The notes: generated by a model from the sequence alone, not told the origin. Counted from the first letter of the stretch, positions 38,410 to 62,777 are shown. The stretch is DNA of 64,000 nucleotides from a bacterium (GCA_021788015.1 JAJYLD010000002.1:26739-90738); one strand, 5' to 3'. Numbers and translations are program-made.

Positions 38410-40623
38410 TTATCTTTTATAAATCCTCAAACTGTTCGTCACCACCGAAACCGAACTGAAGGACATGGCGGCGGCGGCGATAATCGGGTTTAGCGCGCCG
38501 GAGATGGCAAGCGGGATGGCAATTACATTATAAATAAACGCCCAAAAAAGATTCTGTTTGATTGTTCTGAAGGTTTGGCGCGAAATTTTAATCGCTTCCG
38601 TAACTTTTTCCAAATCGTTTCGCATCAAAATAATCTGGCCCGCCTCTTTCGCGATGTCGGTCGCCGAGCCGACGGCGATTCCCAAATCGGCCCGCACCAA
38701 ACTCGGCGCGTCGTTAATTCCGTCGCCGACAAATATGACTCTTTCGCCCGCTTCTTGCAGTTTTTTTATTTCATCCTCTTTCTCGGAAGGCAAAACTTCG
38801 GCCAAAACTTTTTCAATTTCCAAATCATGCGCGACCGCTTCCGCCGTTTTTTTGTTGTCGCCGGAAATCATGCCCACCTTCAACCCCATTTTTTTCAATT
38901 TTCCGATTACATTTTTCGTTTCCGCGCGAATTTCATCGGCAATTAAAATTGCGCCCGCGATTTTTTTATCAATCCCGATAAAAAGCCATGTTCCAATCTC
39001 ATTTTTTTCTAAAATTCTTTCCGCCCAACTTGCTTCGATGCCGTTTTCTTCCATCATTTTCTTGTTGCCCATAAAAACAAAAGTTTTACGGGCGGGACAA
39101 ACCGCGGCCACACCCCTGCCTTCTTTTTCTTTAAAATTTTCAAATTGAGCAAGCTCGATATCTTCTTCTTGCGCATATTCGGCTACCGCCCGCGATAGAG
39201 GATGCTCGGAATTTTTCGCGAGCGACCCCGCGATTTTTAGAACTTTATTTTCATCGCCGTCAAAATCGGCGGTATTTATCATTATTTTCCGCACTTGCGG
39301 TTCACCCTTGGTCAAAGTTCCGGTCTTATCGAAAATAATCATGGTTATATTTTTGGCACGCTCGAAGCTTTCTCCGTTTTTAAAAAGTATGCCTCTTCTC
39401 GCGCCCTTGCCCGTTCCGACCATAATCGCGGTCGGGGTAGCGAGTCCTAAAGCGCAAGGGCAGGCGATAACTAAAACGGCGATGGCGTTGATCAAAGCGA
39501 TCGTAAAATCGCCTTTGGCCAAATACCAGCCGACAAAGCTAAGCACGGCCAGAGCTATTACCGTCGGCACAAAGATGCCGGAAATTTTGTCCGCCAATTT
39601 TTGCACGGGCGCTTTCGAACCTTGCGCGTCCTCGACGGTCTTGATTATTTGCGCCAGAACCGTGCCTTCGCCGACTTGCGTAACTTTAATTTTTAAAACT
39701 CCGCTTTGATTGATCGTCGCGCCGAACACTTTCGAGCCATTTCTTTTCTCAACCGGCATCGACTCGCCCGTAAGCATGGCTTCGTTCACGCTCGATTCTC
39801 CTTCCGTCACTTCGCCGTCCAACGGAATTTTTTCGCTCGGCTTGACTAAAAGCACATCCCCGATTTTTACTTCACTGATATCGATTTCTCTTTCGGTGTC
39901 ATTAATCAAAATTCTCGCTTTTTTCGCACCAAGTTCCATTAATTTGCGCATGGCTTCGCCGGCCCGGCCGGTCGATTTCGCTTCGAAAAATTTTCCGAGC
40001 AAAATCAAAGTAACGATCAAAGCCGCCGACTCGAAATAGCCCATCCGGCCGTTAAACACCGCCCAAAGACTGTAAAAATAAGCGGCCAAAGTACCCATGG
40101 AAACTAAGGTGTCCATGTTCGCATTCAGATGCCGCGCTTGTTTAAACGCCATTTTATGAAAACGCCAGCCGAAATAAAAAACGACGACGGTGGCCAAAAT
40201 AAACTGGAACCATATCGCCAAATCAAGATTTAAAATCATGACACCGGCGTGGAATTTATAAATCATTTCGACAAGCAAAGGCAAGCTGAAAATGACCGAA
40301 CCCAAAAATGCCCGCCAAGTTTTTTTCATATCTTCCGCTTCATGAACATGACCGCCATTCTCCATATGCATGTGATGCATACGCATTTCTTCTTCGTGAT
40401 GAGGCAAAAAAGATTCTTCGACATCGTATCCGTTATCCTTAATCACTTTCACCACTTGATCCACGTTTAAAACGTTTTCATCATATTCAACCGTAGCTTT
40501 TTTTGTCGCGAAATTTACGTTCGCGTTTAAAATACCCTTGGTTTTAGTAAGAGCTTTTTCGTTATTGAGAGCGCAACTCGCGCAGGTCATGCCGGTTACG
40601 GTTATAGTTAATTTTTTTGACAT
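38410..40623 (-). CDS. copA: Copper-translocating P-type ATPase
   Basis: N-terminal HMA GMTCASC, CPC in TM6 ([11 protein letters not shown]), [13 protein letters not shown]. Confidence 0.9.
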
Positions 40624-40868
40624 AAAATTAGATGATAGAAGGCAGACGACAGATTTTTAAAATTCTAAATCCTAAATTCACCCCGGCACCTTCAAGATTT
40701 TGTTTCCGAATAATTTATTTCTAAACCTTAAGTTTTAAAAAACCAAAATTTTGTTTTTAATTACGAAAGGCGCGGGGCAAGAATCCAAAATTATAAATCC
40801 GAATGGCGAAACGTTTTGAATTTTAATTTTTTGTTATTTGAAATTATTTAGAAGTTAGGTATTAGGAT

Positions 40869-41087
40869 TTAGAATTTTTCTACATCTGTTACTTTATACT
40901 CCGTTCCCTCAAGAGCTTTTTGAACTTCATCCAAACCGATTTCGCGATCAGCTTTAATTTCCGTTTCGCCATGAACGTCTTTAATTTCAATTTCTTTCAC
41001 TCCCGGAATTTCGGAAATCAATTTTTTCGAAGTGCTTATACATCCTTCGCAATGGAGATTGTTTATTTTAAACTTGATTGTGTTCAT
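40869..41087 (-). CDS. copZ: HMA-domain copper chaperone
   Basis: 72 aa, LHCEGC metal-binding loop, ferredoxin-like HMA fold. Confidence 0.75.
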   Translation of the reverse strand: MNTIKFKINNLHCEGCISTSKKLISEIPGVKEIEIKDVHGETEIKADREIGLDEVQKALEGTEYKVTDVEKF

Positions 41088-41096
41088 AGTAATATT

Positions 41097-42542
41097 TTAA
41101 TTATTGGTGCCGCAATTTGCGTCCGGGGTTAACCCGCAGGTTGAATCCTGACCCGTGTTACCATTGCCGCTTTCCGTTTTCGCGTTTGTATCATCCGTAA
41201 CAGTAAACGCACCCGTATACATGCCCATGGAGCAGGAAAAATCTATTTTACCCGCGGCGGAAGGAGTGAATTTAACCACGTTTTCTCCCTTTTTTAAATT
41301 CAACTGTAGACCGAGTCTCGGCGCGTATAAGCTGGAGGCGCAGGAATAAGGTTCTTTGGCGTCGATAATCCATTCGACCGGCACGCCCTTTTTAATCGTG
41401 AACGAACTCGGCGCATAGCCGTAACCTTCTTCGGTCATCCTGACGATCTGAACATCGTTTTGCGCATGCGAACCCGAGAAAACGCTTCCTTGGTTTAAAT
41501 TCGAATCGGAACCGAAACCGAGACTGGTTAAACGCGCGCCGTTCGAGATATTGAAAAAAGCGAGAAAAAGAACGGCAATGCCGGCGAATTTAAAAAACTT
41601 TTTCGCAAACGAACCTTTGACGACCGAAGTTAAGCCGCCGACGCCCAAAAGCCCGGGCACCGTACCCAAAGCGAACAAAGCCATGATAAGACCGCCGGTC
41701 ATAAAACTGCCTGTGCTTAAAGCGTAAACTTGCATGGCCTGAGTGAATCCGCAAGGAAGAAAAAAAGTCAGCGCGCCCAAAATGAATGAATTTTTATGGT
41801 TGTATTCTTTCTCGTGTCGCTTTATTCCGAGAATGCGTGTCAAACTTTTTGGCAATGTCAATTTAAAATTCTTAGAACGGGGAAAAACTTCGATCAGCTG
41901 AACGCCCAAACCGAGCATCAATAATCCGACTAAAATTGTTAAAAGCCCGGTAAGAAGGGGAGAGAGCCGAAAAGCCGATCCCAAGAGTCCTAAAATTCCG
42001 CCCAAAACGCCGAAGCCGATTACTCTTCCTAAATTAAAAAAAAGATGGGGGCGAAACCTTTCCAGGCGCGTCGCCTCCGGATGAGCTTCCGCGTGACGCG
42101 CGGAAATACCGAGAATCAAACCGCCGACCAAGGCCATACAAGAAGAAACGCCGGCCGTAAGCCCGACCAAAATCGGGATAAGCAATCCGGAAGGGTTGGA
42201 AAAACTGGCAATGCTTGCATTAAAAATGCCGAAAGCTTTCAAAATAAAGTAAATGCCGACGGCAAAAAGAAAAGCGATGCTCAAATCAAGATAATCTTTT
42301 TTGTTTTTGGAAAAAAACGGTTCCTTTCCGGATATTCCTATTTCATAGCCAGCGCCATGAACCGCTTTTTCTATTTCACCCATGTTCGGTCCATCGCCAT
42401 CAAAATAAATTTCCGCGTTTTGTTTTTTATGATTCGCTTCCGCGTTCTTTACCCCCGTTATTCCCTTAAGATTATTCTCGATTAAAATCTCGCAGGAACG
42501 GCAATGCATGCCTTTAATCGGCACCTTTATTTTTTTTGTCAT
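41097..42542 (-). CDS. HMA-domain fused to DsbD_2/CcdA-like transmembrane core with C-terminal cupredoxin-like domain (putative metal handling)
   Basis: N-terminal GMHCRSC HMA; multi-TM with conserved Cys; C-terminal beta-rich domain with Cys/Met/His ligand candidates. Confidence 0.55.
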   Translation of the reverse strand: MTKKIKVPIKGMHCRSCEILIENNLKGITGVKNAEANHKKQNAEIYFDGDGPNMGEIEKAVHGAGYEIGISGKEPFFSKNKKDYLDLSIAFLFAVGIYFILKAFGIFNASIASFSNPSGLLIPILVGLTAGVSSCMALVGGLILGISARHAEAHPEATRLERFRPHLFFNLGRVIGFGVLGGILGLLGSAFRLSPLLTGLLTILVGLLMLGLGVQLIEVFPRSKNFKLTLPKSLTRILGIKRHEKEYNHKNSFILGALTFFLPCGFTQAMQVYALSTGSFMTGGLIMALFALGTVPGLLGVGGLTSVVKGSFAKKFFKFAGIAVLFLAFFNISNGARLTSLGFGSDSNLNQGSVFSGSHAQNDVQIVRMTEEGYGYAPSSFTIKKGVPVEWIIDAKEPYSCASSLYAPRLGLQLNLKKGENVVKFTPSAAGKIDFSCSMGMYTGAFTVTDDTNAKTESGNGNTGQDSTCGLTPDANCGTNN

Positions 42543-42682
42543 AATTTATGATAAGCTGTCATACCTATAATACATGCCGGCATCAAAAAAATTTCAAACC
42601 GACTTAAAACAATCCGTTTCTGATTTTCATGATTTCCAAAAATTTTTGAGTGCTGAAAATTTTTCGATTCTTGTTTCTTCCG

Positions 42683-43003
42683 CTATTTCCCCATTATATC
42701 TTTTTTCTTTTGTTCGTATTCTTCTTTGTTAATCTCACCCTTCGCATATCTTTCGTCTAAAATACGTAAAGCGTCTTTTTCGCCTTCTTCATCGCAATAC
42801 GGGCAATGTCCGCGTCCGTGGCGATGCCCATAGTGCCGCCAGTATCCTCGCCCAGGCATAGTAAGGGCTCGAATCAGAGCGATGACGATACAGATAATAA
42901 TAATCCAAAAAACGATCATGAAAATTACGCCCATAAAACCGTATCCCGCTCCCCAATTGCCATAATATCCCATCATATTTTTCACCTCCCTTCTTATATA
43001 CAC
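42683..43003 (-). CDS. SHOCT-domain membrane protein
   Basis: TM segment then C-terminal ILDERYAKGEINKEEYEQKKKDI (SHOCT). Confidence 0.6.
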   Translation of the reverse strand: MYIRREVKNMMGYYGNWGAGYGFMGVIFMIVFWIIIICIVIALIRALTMPGRGYWRHYGHRHGRGHCPYCDEEGEKDALRILDERYAKGEINKEEYEQKKKDIMGK

Positions 43004-43138
43004 ACGAAGTTTAACGAATACGACACGAAGCTTAACGAATTAAATCCATCTTTAATTCTATTTAAAACATTGCTCAAAAATCGAGGCTCGCGCTATCTTT
43101 CGTGTTTATTCGTGTGCCTATTCGTTTATTTTTTGTGT

Positions 43139-43894
43139 TTAGTTTTGCAACTTGCCGTCGATAATTTGTTTTATTTGATCGTACGGATAAGCTCCTTGCA
43201 CTTCTTGGCCGTTGATAAAACTTGTCGGAGTGCCGTTTACGCCAAGCTGCTGACCTTCGGCCAAGTCTTTGTCGACTTTCTGCGCGGCTTCGCTGCCGGC
43301 GGTACAGGCATTGAATTTATTCATGTTTAATCCCATGCTTTGCGCCAGTTGGCCGAAATAGGAATCCGTAAACTTATCCTGGTTCCCGAAAAGCGTATAG
43401 CCGTATTCCCAAAATTTGCCCTGTTCGCCCGCGCATTGCGCCGCGATCGCCGCTTTTCTCGCGTAAGGATGGATCGAGGTGAGCGGAAAATATTTCCAAA
43501 CCCAACGCACTTTGCCCTTGTAATCCTGCATAATCTGTTGCATGGTTTGTTCGAAACGTGCGCAGTACGGGCATTCGAAATCGGAGAATTCGACGATGGT
43601 AACGGGAGCGTTTTTGTCTCCTTGAGTCCAATCGTCTTTCGAAATTTGTACGTTTACGTTTGTCGGGGTCGGCTGCGCGGCCGGAGCGGAATTGGAATTG
43701 CCGTTGGCATTGTTGCCGTTGTCATTGGCCTGAACCGTGTTTGCGCTATCGCTTGCGCCGTTATTGTTCGCGGCGCTAGAGAGATCTTTGCCTTTTTGAA
43801 AATAGGCGACGGTCATGATGATGAACCCGGTCAAAGAGATAACCGCGATCCCCGCGGCCAGGCCCAGAAGAAAATTTGTTTGTTTTTCTGACAT
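43139..43894 (-). CDS. Membrane-anchored thioredoxin-fold DsbA-like thiol:disulfide oxidoreductase
   Basis: CPYC active site, N-terminal TM anchor, Asn-rich linker. Confidence 0.7.
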   Translation of the reverse strand: MSEKQTNFLLGLAAGIAVISLTGFIIMTVAYFQKGKDLSSAANNNGASDSANTVQANDNGNNANGNSNSAPAAQPTPTNVNVQISKDDWTQGDKNAPVTIVEFSDFECPYCARFEQTMQQIMQDYKGKVRWVWKYFPLTSIHPYARKAAIAAQCAGEQGKFWEYGYTLFGNQDKFTDSYFGQLAQSMGLNMNKFNACTAGSEAAQKVDKDLAEGQQLGVNGTPTSFINGQEVQGAYPYDQIKQIIDGKLQN

Positions 43895-50544: not shown

Positions 50545-50847
50545 TTATTTTATCTTAAAAATCGTTTTTATGTACTTTTCGTCGATTTTTTCCTTGTTGC
50601 AAATTAATTCGTCTTTTAAAAGCTCAACGCCAAGCATATTTACCGCTTCGCGAATGGCGGTAATTTGCGTAATGATATTCAAGCATTCCTTTTTTTCCTG
50701 AACCATTCTTTTTATTCCCTTTAATTGCCCTTCGATTCTCGAAACACGATTTAAAATTTCAGTTTCATCTGAATTTGAAATTACTTTTGACTTTTGCTTG
50801 TCCCGTAGCGAGCCTTCCCCGCCTCGGGGACTTTTGACTTTTAACAT
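50545..50847 (-). CDS. Second CsoR/RcnR/FrmR-family repressor (start taken at internal MLKVKS)
   Basis: ILNRVSRIEGQLKGIKRMVQEKKECLNIITQITAIREAVNMLGVELL matches the DUF156 W-X-Y-Z ligand pattern. Confidence 0.6.
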   Translation of the reverse strand: MLKVKSPRGGEGSLRDKQKSKVISNSDETEILNRVSRIEGQLKGIKRMVQEKKECLNIITQITAIREAVNMLGVELLKDELICNKEKIDEKYIKTIFKIK

Positions 50848-51470
50848 ACCTCTAGGGGGTATATTATCATGGATTAAAAAATCCGTCAAGAATGCGAAAG
50901 GGACTGTCATAAAAGACCAGTCCCTGTTATTTTTTCACCTCCTTGAATTTGCCGTGGGTACCTATTTCTGAAAATCCAGAAATTCCGCAGGCCCACAGGA
51001 GTGCATCGGATAAAACTTGCACTCTGGAACAGGTAATCCCTGTTCCTTAGATCGAGGTCGCCCGTTTTACTAAGGGGTGACGAGCGTTGCCCGGACCACC
51101 TCCTTTTTCCCCAAAGCTCTTGCCGAAGTGTGGATGCTTTTCATGTTTTTCCTCCCGTGGAGCGAAAATTATGGCCCATTTGCTGCGGTTCAGGATAAAA
51201 ACTGTAATCTTGGCATCCCTTATTTTTTTGCGCCGGTCACCCCAAAAATGCGGGTGATTTTTCTTAATTAACCCAATGTTAATTTCTGATCCCTCCTTCC
51301 CTGAGAAATTCGTTTTTTAAAAAGTAATCCTTACTTTCATTAAACCAAATTTAAATCAAATGTCAAATTAAAATTCATGCTTGACAAAATAGGGTCTTTA
51401 TCATAATATTATATTGATAGAACTTCCGGTTCTATTTTTATGTTTATAATTCAAATTACATTTTAAACGT

Positions 51471-55456: not shown

Positions 55457-56173
55457 ATTCTTTAAACAAAAATTGCCAGGGCATCCCAAAAATTGTTTTA
55501 GGAGTAGCCCCGATATAAGCATACCCAAATATACCATACCTTAAAAGAGTTGACAAGACCTTCTTTTCCGCAATTTATGAATAAGTATTAAACATGCCCT
55601 TGGGGAAGGCGTTGCTTTTTTTAAATACTGATTTTTATAATTTAAAAAGGGGCCCAGACGGGCCCCTTCTTTATATTTAAAGAAAATTAATTTGTGAGCC
55701 TATAACTGAGCCCCATCCCTAAGAATCAATTTCTTCTCATCCGTTGGATAAGCAAGAAAATATTTCGTCCTCAGGGAATGGCGCTTTTTTCTTTCCGACT
55801 TTTGAAAAAGCTTTTGCTTTCTACCGGTTTCGTGGTAAATCTCTTTTTTTGGACTTAGTCCATTTTTTAGGATCTACCTTTATTTTGTTTTTGTTTTTTT
55901 AGGGATAACCCCCTTACCGTGTCGGTACGGCTGAAACTTAGTAGAAAACAGAAAAATTTCCCCCAATTCTCTTTAGGAAAAACTTTTCTTAATTGTTCAA
56001 AGTACTCACTTAACTATAATATACCATGACAACGGCTACCGGTCAACATACAAATATATTGCTTTTTTTGAGTAAACTCGTTATATTTTCCTTTTAGTCC
56101 ACATTTTTCTAGACTTTGCGTTATCCATTGGTTATACTTTTCAACATCTTGTCCACATTGAGGATAAAATATA

Positions 56174-56245
56174 AGGCCACGGTCGGATTCGAACCGGCGG
56201 ATGGCGGTTTTGCAAACCGCTGCCTTACCGCTTGGCTACGTGGCC
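56174..56245 (-). tRNA. tRNA-Cys (anticodon GCA), U73 discriminator
   Basis: Reverse complement GGCCACG TA GCC..GGC A GCGGT TTGCAAA ACCGC ... CCGGTTCGAATCCGG CGTGGCC T. Confidence 0.75.
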
Positions 56246-56321
56246 TAATTTTTGTTAATTTTACTACCGCTTCTGTCTCCAAATACCTTTAAACTATATC
56301 AAAGTTTTTATTCTTAGACAA

Positions 56322-56348
56322 GAAAAAAGGGCTCTTTCGCCCTTTTTT
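56322..56348. terminator. Bidirectional hairpin terminator (AGGGCUCUUUCGCCCUUUUUUAUUUU)
   Basis: Downstream of minus-strand 56367..56933; T/A runs on both sides. Confidence 0.55.
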
Positions 56349-56366
56349 ATTTTATTTTCATTTTTT

Positions 56367-56933
56367 CTACTCCACTATTTCCAGCTTTGCTGTTTTTATG
56401 CCGAAATTTAATGCATCAGACCGATTGAACATCCAGATATCGACCCTAGTTGGGAAGCGCGAATTCATCCGATCTCTGACTGTAAAAATTTTATCTCCAA
56501 AAAATTCAGGGATTCTTATCTTGGTTCCGAACGGCAAAAAGTTGGCCGCTATAGTGTCTTCGATTCCATGTTTGCAAACATTAAATCCGTTTGCCGTCGT
56601 GCAAGGATCATTGTCTGTTTGCGCCTGATCGGAGCTATATGCCGTCATTGTGTAATAACCGAAATGTTTGACTTTTACCGCTTTTTTGGCGGGAGCTGTT
56701 AAGCTGGCAACCGTGGCTTCGGCAACCTGACCAAAATAAGGATTTTCTTCGCTGATTGTTACACAACTTTGATTATTTATGCCAATATTAGAACTTTCTG
56801 TTTGAGACATGGCCAAAGTCGGCATGGCGAAAAATAAAGATTCAAAAATAATTATACACGTTAAAGAAAGTGCTATTTTTTTTGCTAACTTAAGTGAAAT
56901 AAATTTTTTATGGTTTTTTCTTAGTGCATCCAT
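56367..56933 (-). CDS. Secreted 3D-domain (MltA/YocH-like) peptidoglycan-hydrolase-type protein
   Basis: C-terminal 3D domain with conserved Asp triad context YYTMTAYSSDQAQTDNDPCTTANG...RDRM...VDIWM; N-terminal signal/TM. Confidence 0.6.
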   Translation of the reverse strand: MDALRKNHKKFISLKLAKKIALSLTCIIIFESLFFAMPTLAMSQTESSNIGINNQSCVTISEENPYFGQVAEATVASLTAPAKKAVKVKHFGYYTMTAYSSDQAQTDNDPCTTANGFNVCKHGIEDTIAANFLPFGTKIRIPEFFGDKIFTVRDRMNSRFPTRVDIWMFNRSDALNFGIKTAKLEIVE

Positions 56934-57191
56934 TTGGCTAATTTTAGGTAATAAAAAACCCTATCTTTCCACATTACGTGATTTACGATAGGGAATTTTT
57001 CTTTTTTAACGTTTCACTTTAGCAGACAAACGAGCCTAAGTCAATACGCGCCTGTTGACACAAATTAAAAATCATAGTAAGTTTAAACATCTTAGTTCAT
57101 TGCAAAAAAGAATTATGCGAACTCAGATTCAGTTTATTAAACCGAGTTTGGGTTCGTATAATTCCAAAAAAGATGAATGGAGGATAAAAAC

Positions 57192-57710
57192 ATGAAGGGG
57201 AAATTGATGTTGATATTGATCTTGGCCGTGGTCGTGGCGACTGCCCAGGGATGCGCCTGGGTGAACTCAAGGACGGAAATAATAAAAAATCTTGACGGCA
57301 AGGTGATCGAGTCCGCATACACGAGGACCGTGCGAGGCTTCTCGGCCGACAAGGAATCGGCGGCGTCATGGGCGTATGCTGATGCGAGCGCGAGGCTTAC
57401 ACAGGCGCAAACATACAAAGGCGCTTCATGTCTTGCGGCCGCGCCCCGTCTCACGGGCATTCTAATAAATGATGACCGCTTTCGCACTTATACGGCGGCC
57501 ATCAAGAATGTCAGCGGACTGGTAATCGCCACTTTTCTCCTTCGACCGGGAGAGAATCACGAGTATACATTGCCGGCCTACGGCGATTACACGATTACTT
57601 GGTATTGGACGGGAGGATTTAGAGATTCTACCGTAGAGTCCAATCCCTATAAAACGGCCTATGCCGATGGGAAAGAATGGGGGTGGTACTCCCGGATCAG
57701 CAGATATTAA
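57192..57710 (+). CDS. GC-rich lipoprotein (lipobox ATAQGC)
   Basis: SD GGAGGA; MKGKLMLILILAVVVATAQGC; local GC well above neighbours. Confidence 0.6.
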   Translation: MKGKLMLILILAVVVATAQGCAWVNSRTEIIKNLDGKVIESAYTRTVRGFSADKESAASWAYADASARLTQAQTYKGASCLAAAPRLTGILINDDRFRTYTAAIKNVSGLVIATFLLRPGENHEYTLPAYGDYTITWYWTGGFRDSTVESNPYKTAYADGKEWGWYSRISRY

Positions 57711-57759
57711 AAGGAGATGCTTTTGCATCTCCTCTTTTTTTATTATCCTAATTTTTATT

Positions 57760-58212
57760 TTATCCATTATTAACATTGACACCGTTGTTACCGTTATTAT
57801 TGATTGTCCCACCCAGCTTTTTAAAGACAAAGCCGGTAATTATATATGCCGAAGCTATTATAATCAAACCGATTATTCCTCGGAAAATTAATTTTTGCGC
57901 TTTCTCGACCTTTTCTTCGTTACCGCCCGCGGTAAGCCAATTGTAGCCGGCGAGAATGATTATAATTATGAAAATTATTCCCAACAACCCAAGAAACGCC
58001 TGTATGAATGAAGCGATTATATCCGCAGGCATCGCCCCCGCATCGTATCCGGCGCTGTCGTTGAACGACCCCGCTTGGTCGCCCATTTGCCCCACGGTAT
58101 CCGGATTTAATCCAATGGCGTAAGCATGATTCGAAATTAAGAAGGTTAAAAAAAGTGCGATCAAAGAAAAAAATTTTTTTATTCTGTTGCGCGCCTTTTG
58201 CTTTTCTAACAT
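57760..58212 (-). CDS. VirB2/TrbC-like two-helix secreted membrane protein (array copy 1; Asn-rich C-terminal tail)
   Basis: Sec signal, variable ectodomain, conserved LGLLGIIFIIIIILAGYNWLTAGGNEEKVEKAQK...IGLIIIASAYIITGFV. Confidence 0.5.
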   Translation of the reverse strand: MLEKQKARNRIKKFFSLIALFLTFLISNHAYAIGLNPDTVGQMGDQAGSFNDSAGYDAGAMPADIIASFIQAFLGLLGIIFIIIIILAGYNWLTAGGNEEKVEKAQKLIFRGIIGLIIIASAYIITGFVFKKLGGTINNNGNNGVNVNNG

Positions 58213-58275
58213 ATTGTTTTCTCTTTATTAAAATCCGCTCGTTTTTTATTATATGAAATTTGGGGTTTTTACTAT

Positions 58276-58674
58276 TTAACTATATAAAAGTTTATTTAAA
58301 ACAAAATTCCAAATCGCGTAAGCCCCGATAATTATGATTAAACCGATTAAAGTGCGCCACAGCGTATCCTTGGCTCTGTCCACCTTTTCTTCATTGCCGT
58401 TTGCGGTCATCCAATTATAACCGGAGTATATGATCAAAATAATAAAAATTATGCCGAGCAATCCCAAAAAAGCGCCGACAACTTGTCCGATAATTTGTGA
58501 TAATGAATATTGATTGACGTCGTTGGTTTGATAGCCGCCGGTTCCCGCAGTGCCCTGGAGATTTTTAAACATGGCATTGTTCGTATTTACCGAACCGGAA
58601 GCATCGGCAAAGACCGTATGACCGACAAAAGCCATGGATAAGCTGAAAATCAAAATTAAAATTATTTTTTTCAT
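58276..58674 (-). CDS. VirB2/TrbC-like two-helix protein (array copy 2)
   Basis: LGLLGIIFIILIIYSGYNWMTANGNEEKVDRAKD...IGLIIIIGAYAIWNFVL. Confidence 0.5.
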   Translation of the reverse strand: MKKIILILIFSLSMAFVGHTVFADASGSVNTNNAMFKNLQGTAGTGGYQTNDVNQYSLSQIIGQVVGAFLGLLGIIFIILIIYSGYNWMTANGNEEKVDRAKDTLWRTLIGLIIIIGAYAIWNFVLNKLLYS

Positions 58675-58686
58675 ATTACTGATTGT

Positions 58687-59154
58687 TTATGGCGCTGGCG
58701 ACTGGGTTTGCTGCGTAGACGAAGATGGATTTGTGTACTTTGCCGCAAAGTAGTAAAGAACAAAGTAAGTGATTGCGTATGCGGAAACTACAATGATTAA
58801 ACCGATAATCGCGTTTTTTAAAATTCCCTGTGCCTTGTCAACTTGTTCGCCATTGCCCGAAGCCGTCATCCAAAGATAGCCGGCATAAAAAGCCAAAACG
58901 ATAAATATTACGCCCAAAAGCGATAAAAATATCTGAATAAAACTTCCTATAAGTTGAGTAAGCGCGGCCGTGCTATCTGTTACGGGGGCATATTGAGCGG
59001 CGGATCCCGCGTCTTTAAGCAAACCCGAAACCGTGGAGGGATTGGAACCGGGGGTATTATTGGTGGCTATGACAAAGGCCGGAAAAAGAAAAATTGAAAT
59101 TAAGAAAACGAGGGTTAAAATTTTTATTTTTTTGATCATATTAGAATCCCGCAT
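58687..59154 (-). CDS. VirB2/TrbC-like two-helix protein (array copy 3)
   Basis: LSLLGVIFIVLAFYAGYLWMTASGNGEQVDKAQG...IGLIIVVSAYAITYFVL. Confidence 0.5.
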   Translation of the reverse strand: MRDSNMIKKIKILTLVFLISIFLFPAFVIATNNTPGSNPSTVSGLLKDAGSAAQYAPVTDSTAALTQLIGSFIQIFLSLLGVIFIVLAFYAGYLWMTASGNGEQVDKAQGILKNAIIGLIIVVSAYAITYFVLYYFAAKYTNPSSSTQQTQSPAP

Positions 59155-59614
59155 TATAGCCCGTCACGCGCGCCAACGAACTGATTATAAAATAACTTAT
59201 GACATAAAGCGCGGCAATAAGCACGACTCCTATCGTCGAATGCAAAATTGTTCTTTTCGCTTCCCCGATTTTTTCTTCATTCCCGGCGGACGTGAGCCAA
59301 ATGTATCCTCCCCAGACAAGTCTTATTAGAAAAAGTACGCCGACGAAAGGAAAAATTAAAAGAACATCTCCGATATAATTCGCCAAAGCCGAGCTTGAAT
59401 CTCCTTGAATGTTATTATAAACGGAATTTTGCGCCTGGCTTGCCGTTGCGTCATCAAGATTGGTTTGCCAAGCCCCCAAACCGGCGGCATTGACGACATT
59501 GACCGACGCGACAGATTTAATCCCGATGACTCCGAACAAAAATGAAATTCCAAAATATTGGACAAATAAGAAAAGAATTAACGCCAAAAATTTATTTTTT
59601 TTTACAAAATGCAT
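59141..59614 (-). CDS. VirB2/TrbC-like two-helix protein (array copy 4, most divergent)
   Basis: FVGVLFLIRLVWGGYIWLTSAGNEEKIGEAKR...IGVVLIAALYVISYFII. Confidence 0.45.
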   Translation of the reverse strand: MHFVKKNKFLALILFLFVQYFGISFLFGVIGIKSVASVNVVNAAGLGAWQTNLDDATASQAQNSVYNNIQGDSSSALANYIGDVLLIFPFVGVLFLIRLVWGGYIWLTSAGNEEKIGEAKRTILHSTIGVVLIAALYVISYFIISSLARVTGYNAGF

Positions 59615-59616
59615 AC

Positions 59617-60024
59617 TTATTGGATTTTGAAAATTTCTCTTCCTTGCCCTCCTTGAGCAATCCCCAAAACAACATTCACAAAAATAAAGGCGGCAAAAAT
59701 TATTAAAATACCGATGGCTCCGTTTTTAATTCTCGCTTTGCCTTTCACCAGAAGTTCCTCATTGCCATTCGCTCCCAAAATATCCAAAGCGCCCATCCAG
59801 GCGATAATCATAAAAATCAAACCGATAAGAGAAAGGGCGATGTTTATGAAATAACCGACCGTGGTCGCTATCGTGCCGCTATCCGCCGGCATGGCGTCGT
59901 TATAACCGATGTTTTGGGCCGTATTCCCCAAACCCGTTGAACTGGCGAAATCAAAAGCAAAGACTTTCCCTGCTCCAAAAAAAATAAAAATTAGAATACT
60001 TAAAATCAGTGTGGTCTTTTTCAT
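59617..60024 (-). CDS. VirB2/TrbC-like two-helix protein (array copy 5; start taken at internal MKKTTLIL)
   Basis: LSLIGLIFMIIAWMGALDILGANGNEELLVKGKA...IGILIIFAAFIFVNVVL. Confidence 0.45.
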   Translation of the reverse strand: MKKTTLILSILIFIFFGAGKVFAFDFASSTGLGNTAQNIGYNDAMPADSGTIATTVGYFINIALSLIGLIFMIIAWMGALDILGANGNEELLVKGKARIKNGAIGILIIFAAFIFVNVVLGIAQGGQGREIFKIQ

Positions 60025-60195
60025 CCCGTTAAAAATAAACCCTGTAGTACACCTCGTAAACTCGGCGACTAAGGGGCGAGGCGTGGTTGAATAATAGTTT
60101 TGTGCAATGGAACTTGTCCCGCAGCCAAATACAACAGGATTTACGGTATCGTGATTCGCGATCAAAAAGGCAGGGCTTTTACGGAATTCAATTTC

Positions 60196-60603
60196 CTATT
60201 TAACAAAATAACCGATAACCGTTTGGCCCAAAAACTTCGTAATAAGGTAGGCGGCGGCGATTATGACCAAGCCGACCGAAGCGCGAATGGCGGTTGAAAT
60301 CGCCATATTCACTTTTTCTTCGTTCCCGCCCGCCGTCATCCACATAAATCCGGCGTAGATAATCAAAATTAAAAAAATGATACCGATAAAAGCGAGCAGG
60401 CTGCTTATAATATTTCCGATGATTGCGGCAACGTCAGTATTCCCATTGGCCATGTAGTCGGGAGCGGAAGCCTTTAACCCATTTTGAGCCGGGTCCAGAT
60501 AATTGGTATCGGCTAAGACAAAATTATTATGCGTAAACAAAAAAAAGGCCAGCACAAAGCTGAGCATAGTCAAAATTTTCCTTGTTAAGGCCTTTTTTTG
60601 CAT
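60196..60603 (-). CDS. VirB2/TrbC-like two-helix protein (array copy 6; start taken at internal MQKKALTRKIL)
   Basis: LAFIGIIFLILIIYAGFMWMTAGGNEEKVNMAIS...VGLVIIAAAYLITKFL. Confidence 0.5.
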   Translation of the reverse strand: MQKKALTRKILTMLSFVLAFFLFTHNNFVLADTNYLDPAQNGLKASAPDYMANGNTDVAAIIGNIISSLLAFIGIIFLILIIYAGFMWMTAGGNEEKVNMAISTAIRASVGLVIIAAAYLITKFLGQTVIGYFVK

Positions 60604-60628
60604 AATATAAGTTTTGATTTTTTGTTTT

Positions 60629-61033
60629 TTATCCAGTCGCTCCGGTAGAGGTGTAAATTTGGCTGATAACGAAATTTGTGACGCCAAACGCCGCTAAAAT
60701 GATTAATAGCCCGATAAAACCGGCAACAATCATTTTTCGCGCCTCCGATATTTTTTCATCATTTCCGGCCGAAGTCATCCATTTAAAACCGCCGATCAAA
60801 ACAATGGCCAGGGCAATAAGCCCCAAGAAACCGAGAAGAACCCGGATGAAGAAAGCGGCGATGTCTCGAGGATCTTGATTCCCCAAACCGGAATTGGTCT
60901 GGATGTCCTGCTGCTTGTTGTCCCAAAGCAAACTATTTGCATCGGCTTTCGCTTGAGGGGTTATCGTTAAGGCCGGCACAATTATGGTAAGCGCCATGAC
61001 AAAAACGATAAGTTGCTTAACTAGATTTATCAT
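60629..61033 (-). CDS. VirB2/TrbC-like two-helix protein (array copy 7)
   Basis: LGFLGLIALAIVLIGGFKWMTSAGNDEKISEARK...IGLLIILAAFGVTNFVI. Confidence 0.5.
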   Translation of the reverse strand: MINLVKQLIVFVMALTIIVPALTITPQAKADANSLLWDNKQQDIQTNSGLGNQDPRDIAAFFIRVLLGFLGLIALAIVLIGGFKWMTSAGNDEKISEARKMIVAGFIGLLIILAAFGVTNFVISQIYTSTGATG

Positions 61034-61133
61034 ATTTTTAATTTTAGTTTTTATTGTTCACTGCTTTGCACGCGAATTTTTCCCGTCCAAAGCAGTGGAT
61101 TCCTAAAAAGAAATCCACAAATTTTAGAGGAAA

Positions 61134-61529
61134 TTAACTGCCGGTTGCCGTCATTAAACTATTGATGACAAAGGTTGCGATGCCATAAGCGGCCAAAATG
61201 ATAACCAAGCCTATAATGCCGGCCGTAATCAATTTTTTAGCTTCTTCAACTTTATCTTCATTGCCGGCGGCGGTCATCCATTTAAAACCTCCCAATAAAA
61301 TGATTATCACGGCGACGATGCCCAAGAAACCGAGAATAACTTTAATAACGTTTGCCGCAATCGTTCTTGGGTCATTGCTGCCCAAACCGATGTTGGTGAC
61401 GTCCTGTTGATGCCCTCCCCAAGGATCGAGTCCCTGCGCGCTGGCAACGTTAATGGCCAAACTAAAAACAGGTATAATCATTAAAAGGGCTAGAGAATAA
61501 GTTATTAATTTTCTATAGATTTTTTCCAT
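61134..61529 (-). CDS. VirB2/TrbC-like two-helix protein (array copy 8; closest paralogue of copy 7)
   Basis: LGFLGIVAVIIILLGGFKWMTAAGNEDKVEEAKK...IGLVIILAAYGIATFVI. Confidence 0.5.
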   Translation of the reverse strand: MEKIYRKLITYSLALLMIIPVFSLAINVASAQGLDPWGGHQQDVTNIGLGSNDPRTIAANVIKVILGFLGIVAVIIILLGGFKWMTAAGNEDKVEEAKKLITAGIIGLVIILAAYGIATFVINSLMTATGS

Positions 61530-61609
61530 ACTTCACCTCCCTTCATTTTAGAGCACAAACCTACGAATAAAGATTCGTAAATTTTGTAAGTTATTAACAT
61601 AATTATATT

Positions 61610-62413
61610 TTACCATATTTTAGAAAAGAAAAGAATAGATTTTTCAAGCCTTTCCTTTTTTAGAAAATGCCGCCAATTTTCCGAAGTGAGGCTCCCCGGA
61701 TTTTTTGCCCGCCTTATGCCGAACGGACCCGTTTTTGTCCTTTTTAACTCTTCAAGATAAGCCCCCGTGCCCAACTTTTGGCCGATATCGTGAGCCAAGC
61801 TGCGTATATAAGTTCCCGAAGACGCGCGAACCATAATTTTTAACATGGGAAAATTAAAATAAATTATTTTAATTTTATAAATTTTCACTTCAACGGGTTC
61901 GCGCTTAATCGTTACGCCTCTTCTCGCAAATTCGTACAATTTTTTACCCTTAAATTTCTTGGCGCTGAACATGGGAGGGGTTTGTAGTATTTTACCCGTA
62001 AATCCACCCAAAACACTTTTAATTTTCTTTCGCGTTATGATTTCTTTAAAAGATTCCGAATTCTCAAACCGCCTGCCTGCCTGCCGGACAGGCGGGCGGG
62101 ACGGGCATGTTTCCGGTTTCCAAATTCCAATGATTTTTCCCTCTCGGTCATAAGTGTCGGTTTCGGCTCCCAACCGCAGAACGGCTTCATACTCTTTATC
62201 CATTTTCACAAATTGGTTTATCTTCTTTGTCGCTTCCCGTCCGACAGCGACCAACAAAACCCCGCTTGCGAACGGATCGAGGGTCCCGGCGTGTCCTATT
62301 TTTTTTATGCCCGTTATCTTACGCAATCGATTGATCACGTCATGGGAAGTGGGACCGGAAGGCTTGTTGATGATTAGAAAGCCGGACTTAAATTGATTAA
62401 CATCATGATTCAT
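61610..62413 (-). CDS. truB: tRNA pseudouridine(55) synthase
   Basis: GHAGTLDPFASGVLLVAVG catalytic Asp motif. Confidence 0.85.
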   Translation of the reverse strand: MNHDVNQFKSGFLIINKPSGPTSHDVINRLRKITGIKKIGHAGTLDPFASGVLLVAVGREATKKINQFVKMDKEYEAVLRLGAETDTYDREGKIIGIWKPETCPSRPPVRQAGRRFENSESFKEIITRKKIKSVLGGFTGKILQTPPMFSAKKFKGKKLYEFARRGVTIKREPVEVKIYKIKIIYFNFPMLKIMVRASSGTYIRSLAHDIGQKLGTGAYLEELKRTKTGPFGIRRAKNPGSLTSENWRHFLKKERLEKSILFFSKIW

Positions 62414-62474
62414 TGGATTATTTGTTTACACATTACATATAAAAATTAGAAATTACAAAATTAAAAATTCTTTC

Positions 62475-62777
62475 TTGACATCTCCTTTTTTATTTTATAT
62501 GATTATAACCACTAAATTGATATTAACACAAGAAACAGAAAATGTTATGGACGAAATTATTAGTGAAATTTTGGATACCGTAAAATTAAAAATGGAGGAA
62601 CAGGGAGCGTTCGATCGCGACGCTTACGAGGAGTTTATCGAGGAAACCATTCAAGATTTCCGTGAATACGGAAAACTTACCGACGAAGACAGCGATGAAT
62701 ACATAAAAGACGAACTCATGAAAATATGGGAAGATATTGAAAATGAATTCGCCGAAAAACGCAAAAGGAATGAATAA
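62475..62777 (+). CDS. Small acidic hypothetical protein
   Basis: ORF, highly acidic (EE/DE-rich); start uncertain. Confidence 0.35.
   Translation: MTSPFLFYMIITTKLILTQETENVMDEIISEILDTVKLKMEEQGAFDRDAYEEFIEETIQDFREYGKLTDEDSDEYIKDELMKIWEDIENEFAEKRKRNE

What the first reader, a model, noticed from the sequence alone, without database searches (positions are those of the whole stretch)
57760..61529. Eight tandem, diversified genes for Sec-secreted two-helix VirB2/TrbC-like small proteins (putative pilin array) with no T4SS machinery in view
All eight minus-strand ORFs share one plan: Sec signal peptide with AXA cleavage site, a variable 30-60-aa ectodomain (some Asn/Gly/Ser-rich), then a conserved hydrophobic helix, the loop W(M/L)T(A/S)(G/A)GN(E/D)E(K/Q)(V/I)..A(K/R), and a second hydrophobic helix. 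This is the architecture of T4SS VirB2/TrbC pilins. Tandem amplification with variable exposed parts recalls the multicopy trwL pilin genes of Bartonella. Copies 7 and 8 are close paralogues and copy 4 is the most divergent. The array ends directly at truB, so the partner ATPases and channel lie elsewhere or this is a novel surface-filament or bacteriocin-like system.
Basis: partly seen in the sequence, partly recalled or inferred. Interest (0 to 1): 0.8.

Follow-up and report, generated by a model that had tools for sequence, protein, structure and literature searches.

The report
Patescibacterial VirB2-like pilin gene array
Eight tandem genes for small secreted two-helix proteins are a real array of VirB2-like type IV secretion pilins in an ultrasmall Patescibacteria bacterium, a kind of array already described in the literature, though a conserved RNA hairpin pair after the first gene appears to be undescribed.

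Summary
Eight minus-strand genes (57760-61529) share one plan: an AXA-type signal peptide, a variable 20-35 aa exposed segment, and a helix-loop-helix core. Six of the eight pass Pfam PF18895 (T4SS_pilin). One passes PF04956 (TrbC/VirB2), and two pass NCBIfam NF045849. The closest relatives are Ca. Falkowbacteria (class ABY1) proteins that NCBI names 'pilin'. The VirB2-like reading is therefore supported.

It is not new. Arrays of 2-11 divergent VirB2-like pilin genes in Patescibacteria were reported in 2018, 2023 and 2025, and the array in Southlakia epibionticum is essential.

No VirB4, VirD4 or VirB6 lies in the window or within about 10 kb beyond either end. None lies within 10 kb of the arrays in the relatives sampled. 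Five relatives listed in the 2025 paper do carry VirB4 elsewhere in their genomes.

Observations I did not find in the papers read:
- The array (5-10 genes) is present in 75 of 80 related genomes, with rough positional orthology.
- The first gene is by far the best conserved.
- The first gene is followed by a spacer of about 100 nt holding two adjacent hairpins. Covariation supports them, they have no Rfam match, and the model hits nowhere else in 1.3 Mb.
- A membrane-anchored 3D-domain (YuiC/MltA-like) gene often follows the array.

Verdict: a new member of a known kind, of moderate interest.

The parts
61134..61529 (-). Pilin gene 1 of the operon (131 aa). It is the best-conserved copy and the candidate major subunit, and the only copy with a strong Shine-Dalgarno sequence (GGGAGGTG).
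   Evidence: PF18895 44.8 bits and NF045849 40.1 bits. It is 55-73% identical to the first gene of related arrays. Against relatives the core is 71% identical, versus 30-53% for the other copies. The AF2 model has pLDDT 84, with a signal helix plus a hairpin H54-85/H91-128.
61055..61118 (-). Two adjacent RNA hairpins in the 100-nt spacer after gene 1. Invariant 5' GTGG and central CCAC close hairpin 1. Hairpin 2 follows directly and ends in GTG(G/A).
   Evidence: MFE is -31.1 kcal/mol with z=-6.5. Eighteen of 23 pairs show compensatory changes in 17 sequences. Pairing is 92% versus 78% in shuffles, and the covariation score is reached by 0 of 500 shuffles. The covariance model scores 62.8 bits here, and its 48 sense-strand hits in 1.31 Mb all follow first-type pilin genes. 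There is no Rfam match.
60629..61033 (-). Pilin gene 2 (134 aa), a lineage-specific duplicate of gene 1.
   Evidence: PF18895 22.6 bits (below the 26.6 cut-off) and NF045849 38.5 bits. It is 49% identical to gene 1. Its best hits in relatives are their first genes.
60196..60603 (-). Pilin gene 3 (135 aa from ATG 60603). The listed ORF runs on to 60687.
   Evidence: PF04956 TrbC 29.7 bits (cut-off 27.9) and PF18895 29.4 bits. Start refined.
59617..60024 (-). Pilin gene 4 (135 aa from ATG 60024). It is the most divergent copy and is preceded by a 171-nt spacer.
   Evidence: PF18895 21.5 bits, E=2.5e-4, below the cut-off. It has the same signal peptide and two-helix plan.
59141..59614 (-). Pilin gene 5 (157 aa).
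   Evidence: PF18895 34.2 bits.
58687..59139 (-). Pilin gene 6 (150 aa from ATG 59139), with a Ser/Thr/Gln/Pro-rich C-terminal tail.
   Evidence: PF18895 37.4 bits. Alignment.
58276..58674 (-). Pilin gene 7 (132 aa).
   Evidence: PF18895 35.2 bits and NF045849 47.5 bits (cut-off 40).
57760..58212 (-). Pilin gene 8 (150 aa), with an Asn/Gly-rich C-terminal tail.
   Evidence: PF18895 37.4 bits. Alignment.
57712..57733 (.). GC-rich hairpin between the end of the array and the convergent 177-aa gene. It is the likely terminator of the operon.
   Evidence: Terminator-like site with 9 pairs. The T-run was scored on the + strand. On the minus strand the hairpin is followed by TTTAATAT.
56367..56933 (-). 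Membrane-anchored 3D-domain (YuiC/MltA-like) protein, a possible cell-wall-opening partner. The association is inferred from synteny only.
   Evidence: Homologues are named '3D domain-containing protein' by NCBI and JGI. The AF2 model has a TM helix at 14-48 and a DPBB domain at 88-187. Foldseek matches YuiC (probability 1.0, 24-26% identity), MltA and expansins. The gene lies within 4 kb downstream on the same strand in 31 of 58 related arrays and never upstream.

Best explanation
This is the chromosomal VirB2-like pilin operon of a Patescibacteria (CPR) bacterium of class ABY1, close to Candidatus Falkowbacteria.

Shown: the eight genes encode members of the PF18895 / TrbC-VirB2 pilin superfamily.

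Inferred from the anatomy and from established VirB2/TraA biology:
- Each precursor is inserted by Sec and cut by signal peptidase I at the AXA site.
- This leaves a membrane hairpin with the variable N-terminus and the C-terminal tail outside and the charged GNEEK loop in the cytoplasm.
- A VirB4/VirB6-type T4SS encoded elsewhere in the genome extracts these subunits and assembles them into a pilus or channel extension used for contact with a host bacterium.

Inferred from comparative data:
- The first gene encodes the main subunit. It is the best conserved, has the only strong ribosome-binding site, and is followed by a conserved pair of RNA hairpins.
- The seven tightly packed, fast-diverging downstream genes encode minor or alternative subunits that vary the exposed surface.
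- The hairpin pair acts as a partial terminator or as a 3' stabiliser of the gene-1 transcript, and so sets the ratio of the first subunit to the others.
For: Family membership: PF18895 is passed by 6 of 8 copies, PF04956 by one, and NF045849 (a pilin-like conjugal transfer protein of mollicute ICEs) by two. There are 3555 homologues, all carrying PF18895, and NCBI names them 'pilin' in Falkowbacteria and Patescibacteria MAGs. hhalign against authentic MPF_T VirB2/TrbC gives E=4e-4 and 5.7e-4, in register.

Topology and fold: a signal helix plus a 32+38-residue helical hairpin, pLDDT 84.

Published context: Patescibacteria arrays of 2-11 VirB2-like genes have mean identity 25% and maximum 54% (PMC12102498). 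The array is essential in S. epibionticum (PMC10633639; PMC12857230). VirB4 is present in 2417 of 3035 Patescibacteria assemblies, including five ABY1 relatives whose arrays I examined.

Operon anatomy: the gap after gene 1 has a median of 104 nt, against 6-12 nt for the later gaps, in 75 arrays. The hairpins are supported by covariation and are specific to this position. Gene 1 is the most conserved copy. In every copy the exposed N-terminal part is less conserved than the core.
Against: No T4SS ATPase, VirB6 or VirB3 was found in the 64-kb window, in about 10 kb beyond its start, or in 7.5 kb beyond its end. None was found among 30 representative large ORFs within 10 kb of related arrays. 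Coupling to a T4SS is therefore inferred, not shown.

The presence of VirB4 in this particular genome could not be checked.

Homology to classical VirB2 is weak: hhalign probability is only 29-35%, and 7 of 8 copies fall below the PF04956 cut-off.

No pilus has been seen in any Patescibacteria. The major/minor reading and the role of the RNA hairpins rest only on conservation and gene spacing.
Confidence: 0.7

Rival explanations
1. The array has been uncoupled from the T4SS. The hairpin proteins would form a T4SS-independent envelope structure, such as a membrane or surface lattice or a filament assembled by another machine (for example the Sec/YidC pathway alone, or the type IV pilus apparatus).
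For: No T4SS gene lies within about 10 kb of the array here or of the related ABY1 arrays sampled. The recurrent neighbours are cell-envelope genes instead: a 3D-domain muralytic protein, a GT-C-like membrane protein, PBP1-type Transgly/Transpeptidase, Amidase_2 and SpoIID.
Against: In Saccharibacteria the homologous arrays sit inside the T4SS cluster and are essential together with it. In 1135 of 1948 assemblies a pilin gene lies near virB4. ABY1 relatives carrying this array do encode VirB4. Scattered T4SS genes are common.
Confidence: 0.15
2. The eight genes are alternative major pilins used one at a time, or in changing proportions, for antigenic or host-range variation. This is the role proposed for Bartonella trwL and Anaplasma virB2 paralogues. 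They would not be minor subunits co-assembled with gene 1.
For: Exposed N-terminal segments and C-terminal tails differ strongly between copies and evolve faster than the core. The 2025 paper proposes the same idea. A- or T-runs of 8-9 nt lie in three signal-peptide coding regions.
Against: The genes are packed 1-25 nt apart (two larger gaps, 63 and 171 nt) in one orientation, with a terminator-like site flagged only at the end of the array. This fits co-transcription. Rough positional orthology across genomes argues for fixed, distinct roles. There are no invertible or recombination features and no recent gene conversion. Homopolymer density is not clearly above the window background.
Confidence: 0.12
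3. They are small secreted membrane-active peptides (class II bacteriocin and immunity pairs, or holin-like proteins) and not pilins.
For: They are small, hydrophobic, tandem and diversified. The fold search also returns pore-forming toxin helices at non-significant E-values.
Against: No bacteriocin, immunity or holin family is hit at E<=1. The leaders are Sec/AXA type, not double-glycine. No C39 ABC exporter lies in the window. All copies share one architecture, not toxin and immunity pairs. The family-level hits are to pilins.
Confidence: 0.03

Closest known systems
VirB2-like pilin arrays of Patescibacteria (McLean et al. 2018 preprint 10.1101/258137; Wang et al. 2023, PMC10633639; Quinonero-Coronel et al. 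2025, PMC12102498)
   Same: Tandem genes for small Sec-secreted PF18895/PF04956 proteins. There are 8 copies, within the published range of 2-11. Identity within the array is low (35% mean and 49% maximum here, against the published 25% mean and 54% maximum). The location is chromosomal in a CPR bacterium.
   Different: This array is in class ABY1 (Falkowbacteria-like) and lies more than 10 kb from any T4SS gene. The characterised Saccharibacteria arrays sit inside the T4SS cluster, and the paper's array figure refers to arrays near virB4. The conserved first gene, the long structured spacer after it, and the 3D-domain neighbour are not mentioned in the papers read.
Classical VirB2/TrbC pilins of MPF_T systems (Agrobacterium VirB2 and plasmid TrbC/VirB2 proteins)
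   Same: A cleaved signal peptide, two hydrophobic helices and a G..WM motif at the end of helix 1. The profile-level similarity is in register.
   Different: In all eight plasmid examples fetched, the classical pilin is a single-copy gene flanked by virB1 and virB3. Here there are eight copies and no T4SS neighbours. The loop is longer and charged (GNEEKVxxAKK, against GRASLG). The host is presumed monoderm.
Multicopy trwL pilin genes of Bartonella (and virB2 paralogues of Anaplasma)
   Same: Tandem amplification and diversification of a VirB2-type pilin, with variable exposed parts.
   Different: According to my own knowledge, the Bartonella copies lie within the trw T4SS locus and are co-amplified with other trw genes in a diderm pathogen of animals. 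Here the array stands alone. The copies are far more divergent, and they are positionally orthologous across many genomes, so the amplification is ancient.
NCBIfam NF045849, Mbov_0395 family pilin-like conjugal transfer protein of mollicute ICEs
   Same: It is the best-scoring curated NCBIfam model. Two copies pass its 40-bit cut-off (47.5 and 40.1 bits) and two more score 38-39 bits. Both are from monoderm-type organisms.
   Different: The ICE protein belongs to a mobile conjugative element. This array is chromosomal, multicopy and has no conjugation genes nearby. I did not compare actual mollicute sequences.
Intergenic stem-loops that set the ratio of operon products (for example the REP hairpins between malE and malF, and the stem-loop after papA in E. 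coli; my own knowledge)
   Same: Stable hairpins lie directly after the first, presumably most abundant, gene of a polycistronic unit. No canonical U-tract follows them.
   Different: No functional data exist here. The element has its own invariant GTGG/CCAC/GTGG signature and is not repeated elsewhere in the 1.3 Mb searched.

Membership tests
Pfam PF18895 T4SS_pilin | Whole-protein score at or above the gathering cut-off (26.6 bits) | tested here: met
   Six of eight copies score 29.4-44.8 bits. Copies 59617-60024 (21.5 bits) and 60629-61033 (22.6 bits) fall below the cut-off but share the architecture.
Pfam PF04956 TrbC/VirB2 | Whole-protein score at or above the gathering cut-off (27.9 bits) | tested here: inconclusive
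   Only 60196-60603 passes (29.7 bits). Three copies score 22.3-25.4 bits and four have no hit at E<=1. hhalign against eight authentic VirB2/TrbC proteins gives E=4e-4 and 5.7e-4, with probability 29-35%.
VirB2-type T4SS pilin | Cleavable signal peptide followed by two hydrophobic helices joined by a short loop | tested here: met
   Hydropathy scan and AXA-type sites in all eight copies. The AF2 model shows hairpin H54-85/H91-128 with pLDDT above 90.
VirB2-type T4SS pilin | Encoded within or next to a T4SS gene cluster (VirB1/B3/B4/B6) | tested here: not met
   No T4SS family was found among 30 window ORFs, including every ORF of 500 aa or more (for RNase Y). None was found in the flanks beyond the window. 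All eight authentic plasmid VirB2 genes fetched lie between virB1 and virB3.
VirB2-type T4SS pilin | A VirB4 ATPase encoded in the same genome | not testable with these tools
   The source genome is not among the species representatives searched (best match 67% identity), and only window proteins can be looked up. Five ABY1 relatives that carry the array are listed as VirB4-positive in PMC12102498 Table S1.
VirB2-type T4SS pilin | Polymerises into an extracellular pilus | not testable with these tools
   This needs microscopy or biochemistry. According to the 2025 review it has not yet been shown for any Patescibacteria.
Patescibacteria VirB2-like pilin array (PMC12102498) | Two to eleven tandem pilin genes with low mutual identity in a Patescibacteria genome | tested here: met
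   Eight genes with mean identity 35% and maximum 49%. The closest homologues are from Ca. Falkowbacteria and Patescibacteria MAGs.
Bartonella trw-type pilin amplification | Pilin copies amplified inside the T4SS locus together with other trw genes | tested here: not met
   The array contains only pilin genes and has no T4SS neighbours.
NCBIfam NF045849 (Mbov_0395 pilin-like conjugal transfer protein) | Score at or above the 40-bit equivalog cut-off | tested here: inconclusive
   The cut-off is passed by 58276-58674 (47.5 bits) and 61134-61529 (40.1 bits). The other six copies score 19-39 bits.
Flp / type IV (class III signal peptide) pilins | Match to Flp or N-methylation-site pilin models, with a prepilin peptidase site | tested here: not met
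   No such Pfam family appears at E<=1 for any copy. The leaders end in AXA-type signal peptidase I sites.
Class II bacteriocin / immunity pairs | Double-glycine leader, bacteriocin or immunity family match, and a dedicated C39 ABC exporter nearby | tested here: not met
   No family hit. The leaders are Sec-type. No C39 exporter is present in the window.
Rfam families (for the hairpin pair after gene 1) | Covariance-model match | tested here: not met
   No match at E<=1 in 56000-62600 apart from a tRNA and two weak, unrelated hits elsewhere.

The most novel reading that the evidence does not exclude
In ABY1/Falkowbacteria-like Patescibacteria the VirB2-like array may be a self-contained 'major plus minor pilin' operon that has separated from the T4SS cluster. 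One conserved main subunit gene would be set apart from 5-8 fast-evolving accessory pilin genes by a previously undescribed cis-acting RNA element. This element is two adjacent hairpins with an invariant GTGG/CCAC/GTGG signature that allows two mutually exclusive pairings, and it would control subunit stoichiometry. A co-located 3D-domain muralytic enzyme would play the VirB1 role.
Probability: 0.3. Interest if true: 0.55.

Novelty: new member of a known kind. Interest (0 to 1): 0.35.

Why it matters
Patescibacteria make up a large share of uncultivated bacterial diversity and live attached to host cells. In the one genetically tractable species, the T4SS and its pilin array are essential (PMC10633639). 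How a presumed monoderm builds and uses a VirB2-type pilus is an open question raised in the 2025 T4SS review (PMC12857230).

This locus adds no new kind of system. The comparative results do give testable handles:
- which of the many pilin genes is likely to be the main subunit;
- a conserved RNA element that probably sets subunit ratios;
- a candidate cell-wall-opening enzyme;
- evidence that, in a whole class (ABY1), the array is kept intact although it is unlinked from virB4.

Tried and rejected
- Sequence searches of the PDB with the pilin profile and with the 3D protein found nothing.
- I tried to find VirB4 in the same genome. The source genome is not among the GTDB representatives, and cluster look-up gave no accession or name.
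- Pfam gave no hit for the 188-aa and 177-aa neighbours even at E<=10. The 188-aa protein was resolved by homologue names and by structure instead.
- I looked for signs of recent amplification or gene conversion. Only the 101-nt core is alignable at the DNA level, at 60-73%.
- I looked for phase-variation tracts. Three runs of 8-9 A or T lie in signal-peptide codons, at a density (0.77 per kb) not clearly above the window's (0.36 per kb). I rejected this as evidence.
- A literature search for the NCBIfam Mbov_0395 family and for mycoplasma ICE VirB2 gave nothing useful.
- The consensus promoter scan reported no promoter-like site in the 80-nt gap between truB and the first pilin gene.

Full report
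**Observation.** The region 57760-61529 holds eight consecutive minus-strand ORFs of 131-182 aa. Two of them are over-extended by the mechanical ORF rule. The starts that precede a signal peptide are ATG 60024 and ATG 60603, giving proteins of 135 aa each and removing the apparent overlap with the next gene. All eight proteins align over a common plan:
- a positively charged N-terminus, a hydrophobic h-region and a small-X-small site (AYA, VFA, VIA, VNA, VFA, VLA, AKA, ASA);
- a poorly conserved segment of about 20-35 residues;
- a long hydrophobic helix ending in G(Y/F)xW(M/L)T;
- a charged loop, GN(E/D/G)E(K/Q)(V/I)xxA(K/R);
- a second hydrophobic helix and a variable tail.

A hydropathy scan finds the signal sequence and the two helices in every copy. 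Pairwise identity averages 35%, with a maximum of 49% between the two promoter-proximal genes and a minimum of 26%. At the DNA level only a 101-nt core is still alignable, at 60-73%. These are therefore old duplicates, not a recent amplification. The copy that departs most from the motif is 59617-60024.

**What the proteins are.** Pfam places all eight in PF18895 (T4SS_pilin). Six score above the gathering cut-off (29.4-44.8 bits against 26.6) and two just below (21.5 and 22.6 bits). PF04956 (TrbC/VirB2) is passed by 60196-60603 (29.7 bits against 27.9) and hit at E=1.7e-5 to 1.5e-4 by three other copies. No Flp, type IV pilin, bacteriocin or holin family appears even at E<=1. NCBIfam's best model is NF045849, a pilin-like conjugal transfer protein of mollicute ICEs. 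It is passed by two copies (47.5 and 40.1 bits against 40) and narrowly missed by two more.

A search of 5.8 billion proteins with the first gene returned 3555 homologues. All listed ones carry PF18895. Those with names are called 'pilin' by NCBI in Candidatus Falkowbacteria and Patescibacteria group MAGs.

As an independent test I fetched eight authentic VirB2/TrbC genes from MPF_T plasmids, each lying between virB1 and virB3. I aligned them and compared profiles. hhalign gives E=4e-4 (39 columns) and E=5.7e-4 (73 columns), in register from the DP motif before helix 1 to the G..WM motif, but with probabilities of only 29-35%.

**Organism and surroundings.** The window encodes housekeeping functions. 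These include RNase Y, PurL, RecQ, SHMT, FolD, TrpS/TyrS-type synthetase, TsaD, TsaE, a copper P-type ATPase, glutamate dehydrogenase, thioredoxin reductase, LspA, DksA, TruB and RNase J. No VirB4, VirD4, VirB6, VirB3 or relaxase family was found among the 30 window ORFs scanned, which include every ORF of 500 aa or more. None was found in about 10 kb beyond the window start or in 7.5 kb beyond its end. The closest genomes are Falkowbacteria-like MAGs of GTDB class ABY1.

**Comparison with what is known.** This kind of locus is published.
- Wang et al. showed by Tn-seq that the predicted pilin series within the T4SS cluster of Southlakia epibionticum is essential (PMC10633639).
- Quinonero-Coronel et al. 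searched 3035 Patescibacteria genomes with PF04956 and PF18895. They found VirB4 in 2417 assemblies, and VirB2-like pilins in 1948 VirB4-positive assemblies, lying near virB4 in 1135 of them.
- The 2025 T4SS review presents these arrays as the one known case of VirB2-like pilins in monoderm-type bacteria (PMC12857230).

The present array fits that description in copy number, divergence and host. It differs in being unlinked from virB4. The paper's array figure refers to arrays 'near virB4' and names Microgenomatia and Saccharimonadia as the classes rich in arrays. Unlinked ABY1 arrays like this one may therefore be under-counted there, though I could not verify how the 441 were defined. Five ABY1 genomes whose arrays I hold (L022, L025, L037, L062, L070) are listed as VirB4-positive in the paper's Table S1. 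Yet none of the 30 representative large ORFs within 10 kb of the related arrays hits a T4SS family. The partner machinery, if used, is encoded elsewhere.

**Comparative anatomy of the array (my own analysis).** A scan of species-representative genomes returned 80 loci. An HMM of the hairpin core finds a tandem run of at least five same-strand pilin genes in 75 of them, most often six and at most ten. Four findings follow.
1. The window's first gene is 55-73% identical to the first gene of the other arrays. The second gene is a lineage-specific duplicate of the first. The remaining genes find their best matches at roughly the same relative positions, at 30-55% identity. The array is therefore ancient and positionally conserved.
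2. Against relatives, the first gene keeps 71% identity in the hairpin core and 39% in the exposed N-terminal segment. The other seven keep 30-53% and 16-34%. The exposed part evolves faster than the core in every copy, and gene 1 is under the strongest constraint.
3. Only gene 1 has a strong Shine-Dalgarno sequence.
4. The gap after gene 1 has a median of 104 nt (interquartile range 78-168), whereas every later gap has a median of 6-12 nt.

**The RNA element.** The spacer after gene 1 folds into two adjacent stable hairpins. In the window the MFE is -31.1 kcal/mol with z=-6.5 against dinucleotide shuffles. Across 73 loci the median z is -5.6.

In a MAFFT alignment of 17 sequences, RNAalifold predicts both hairpins, with compensatory changes at 18 of 23 pairs. 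In that alignment 92% of cells pair, against 78% in shuffles and 38-51% when the partners are slid. No shuffle out of 500 reaches the observed covariation score.

The 17 sequences were chosen by a GTGG...CCAC pattern. That fixes four invariant pairs but not the 18 that covary.

A covariance model built from the alignment finds 48 sense-strand matches (E<0.001) in 44 loci among 1.31 Mb. Of these, 41 lie directly after gene 1 and 7 after a duplicated first-type gene, at a median of 29 nt past the stop codon. There are none elsewhere in the window or the flanks, and antisense scores are much lower.

The central invariant CCAC can pair either with the 5' GTGG or with a 3' GTG(G/A). Because these bases do not vary, the data cannot say which pairing is used.

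No Rfam family matches. No U-tract follows the element. The only terminator-like site flanking the array is a hairpin at 57712-57733, at its end.

I infer a partial terminator or a 3' stabiliser that raises the amount of gene-1 product relative to the rest. This is an inference from anatomy only.

**Neighbours.** The 188-aa protein at 56367-56933 has no Pfam hit, but its homologues are named '3D domain-containing protein'. Its model has an N-terminal transmembrane helix, a disordered linker and a double-psi beta-barrel domain. That domain matches B. subtilis YuiC (probability 1.0, 24-26% identity), MltA, expansins and phage or diffocin baseplate proteins. A homologue lies within 4 kb downstream of the array, on the same strand, in 31 of 58 loci with enough sequence, and never upstream.

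This recalls the virB1-virB2 adjacency of classical systems. The 2025 paper also remarks that other glycosidases might replace VirB1. Shared ancestry of the genomes could explain the synteny equally well.

In 40 of 80 relatives a divergent multi-pass membrane protein of about 530 aa precedes the array. In this genome truB is there instead.

**Mechanism and confidence.**
- Shown: family membership, architecture, array conservation, the structured spacer and the absence of nearby T4SS genes.
- Inferred from established VirB2/TraA biology: Sec insertion, signal peptidase I cleavage, a membrane hairpin with both termini outside, and extraction and polymerisation by a VirB4/VirB6 machine.
- Inferred from comparative data: gene 1 as the main subunit, genes 2-8 as minor or alternative subunits that diversify the exposed surface, and the hairpin pair as the device that sets their ratio.

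I put 0.7 on the overall reading that these are T4SS-type pilins serving the patescibacterial T4SS. I put lower confidence (about 0.3-0.4) on the major/minor and RNA parts. The rivals are:
- a T4SS-independent envelope role (0.15);
- one-at-a-time variant pilins (0.12);
- bacteriocin-like peptides (0.03).

**Verdict.** The finding is real and correctly interpreted, but it belongs to a kind already in the literature. It is a new member, from an ABY1 lineage and unlinked from virB4. The most interesting residue is the conserved first gene with its covariation-supported hairpin pair, which I did not find described.

Noticed in passing
window 61055-61118 (-), and after the first pilin gene in 44 related loci (e.g. 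L016:10409-10475, L005:10433-10501): A conserved pair of adjacent RNA hairpins with invariant GTGG / CCAC / GTG(G/A). Eighteen of 23 pairs show compensatory changes. It has no Rfam match and occurs only after first-type pilin genes in the 1.31 Mb searched.
   Followed up: yes
window 56367-56933 (-): A membrane-anchored 3D-domain (YuiC/MltA-like double-psi beta-barrel) protein that Pfam misses. It lies downstream of the pilin array, on the same strand, in 31 of 58 related loci. It is a possible VirB1-like wall-opening partner.
   Followed up: partly
related loci, e.g. L047:8280-9872 (-), directly upstream of the array: A multi-pass membrane protein of about 530 aa with no Pfam hit is transcribed divergently from the array in 40 of 80 relatives. 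It looks like a GT-C-type glycosyltransferase by eye only. It is absent from this window, where truB takes its place.
   Followed up: partly
L032:11054-11842 and L035:2437-3276; L075:7771-9714: Some relatives have two complete pilin modules fused in one ORF (263 codons in L032). L075 has a 647-aa protein with an internal PF18895 domain.
   Followed up: partly
related loci, e.g. L046:5680-6201, L047:5672-6214, L052:4257-4763: A solitary, more divergent pilin-like gene (core-HMM score about 40-60) lies 4-5 kb upstream of the main array in about 20 relatives. No counterpart was found in this window.
   Followed up: no
window 60025-60195 (-): There is a 171-nt non-coding gap inside the otherwise tightly packed array, between the third and fourth genes. 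It is not matched by the hairpin-pair model and has no obvious ORF remnant.
   Followed up: no
window 59595-59603, 59977-59984, 60539-60546: Runs of 8-9 A or T lie in the signal-peptide coding parts of three pilin genes. The density (0.77 per kb) is not clearly above the window background (0.36 per kb), so this is not taken as evidence of phase variation.
   Followed up: partly
window 57177-57710 (+): A 177-aa protein with a lipoprotein-like N-terminus (…ATAQGC) is inserted convergently between the array and the 3D-domain gene. It has no Pfam hit and a homologue in only one related locus, L022.
   Followed up: no
window 38410-43894 and 50545-50910 (-): A metal-handling gene set: a copper-type P-type ATPase with an HMA domain, a DsbD_2-HMA-cupredoxin fusion protein, a DsbA-like thioredoxin, and a CsoR-type metal-sensing repressor further on.
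   Followed up: no
The best curated NCBIfam match is a pilin-like protein of mollicute ICEs (NF045849). PMC12102498 states that MPF_FATA systems lack VirB2 homologues. This may bear on where the patescibacterial pilin came from, but I did not compare mollicute sequences directly.
   Followed up: no
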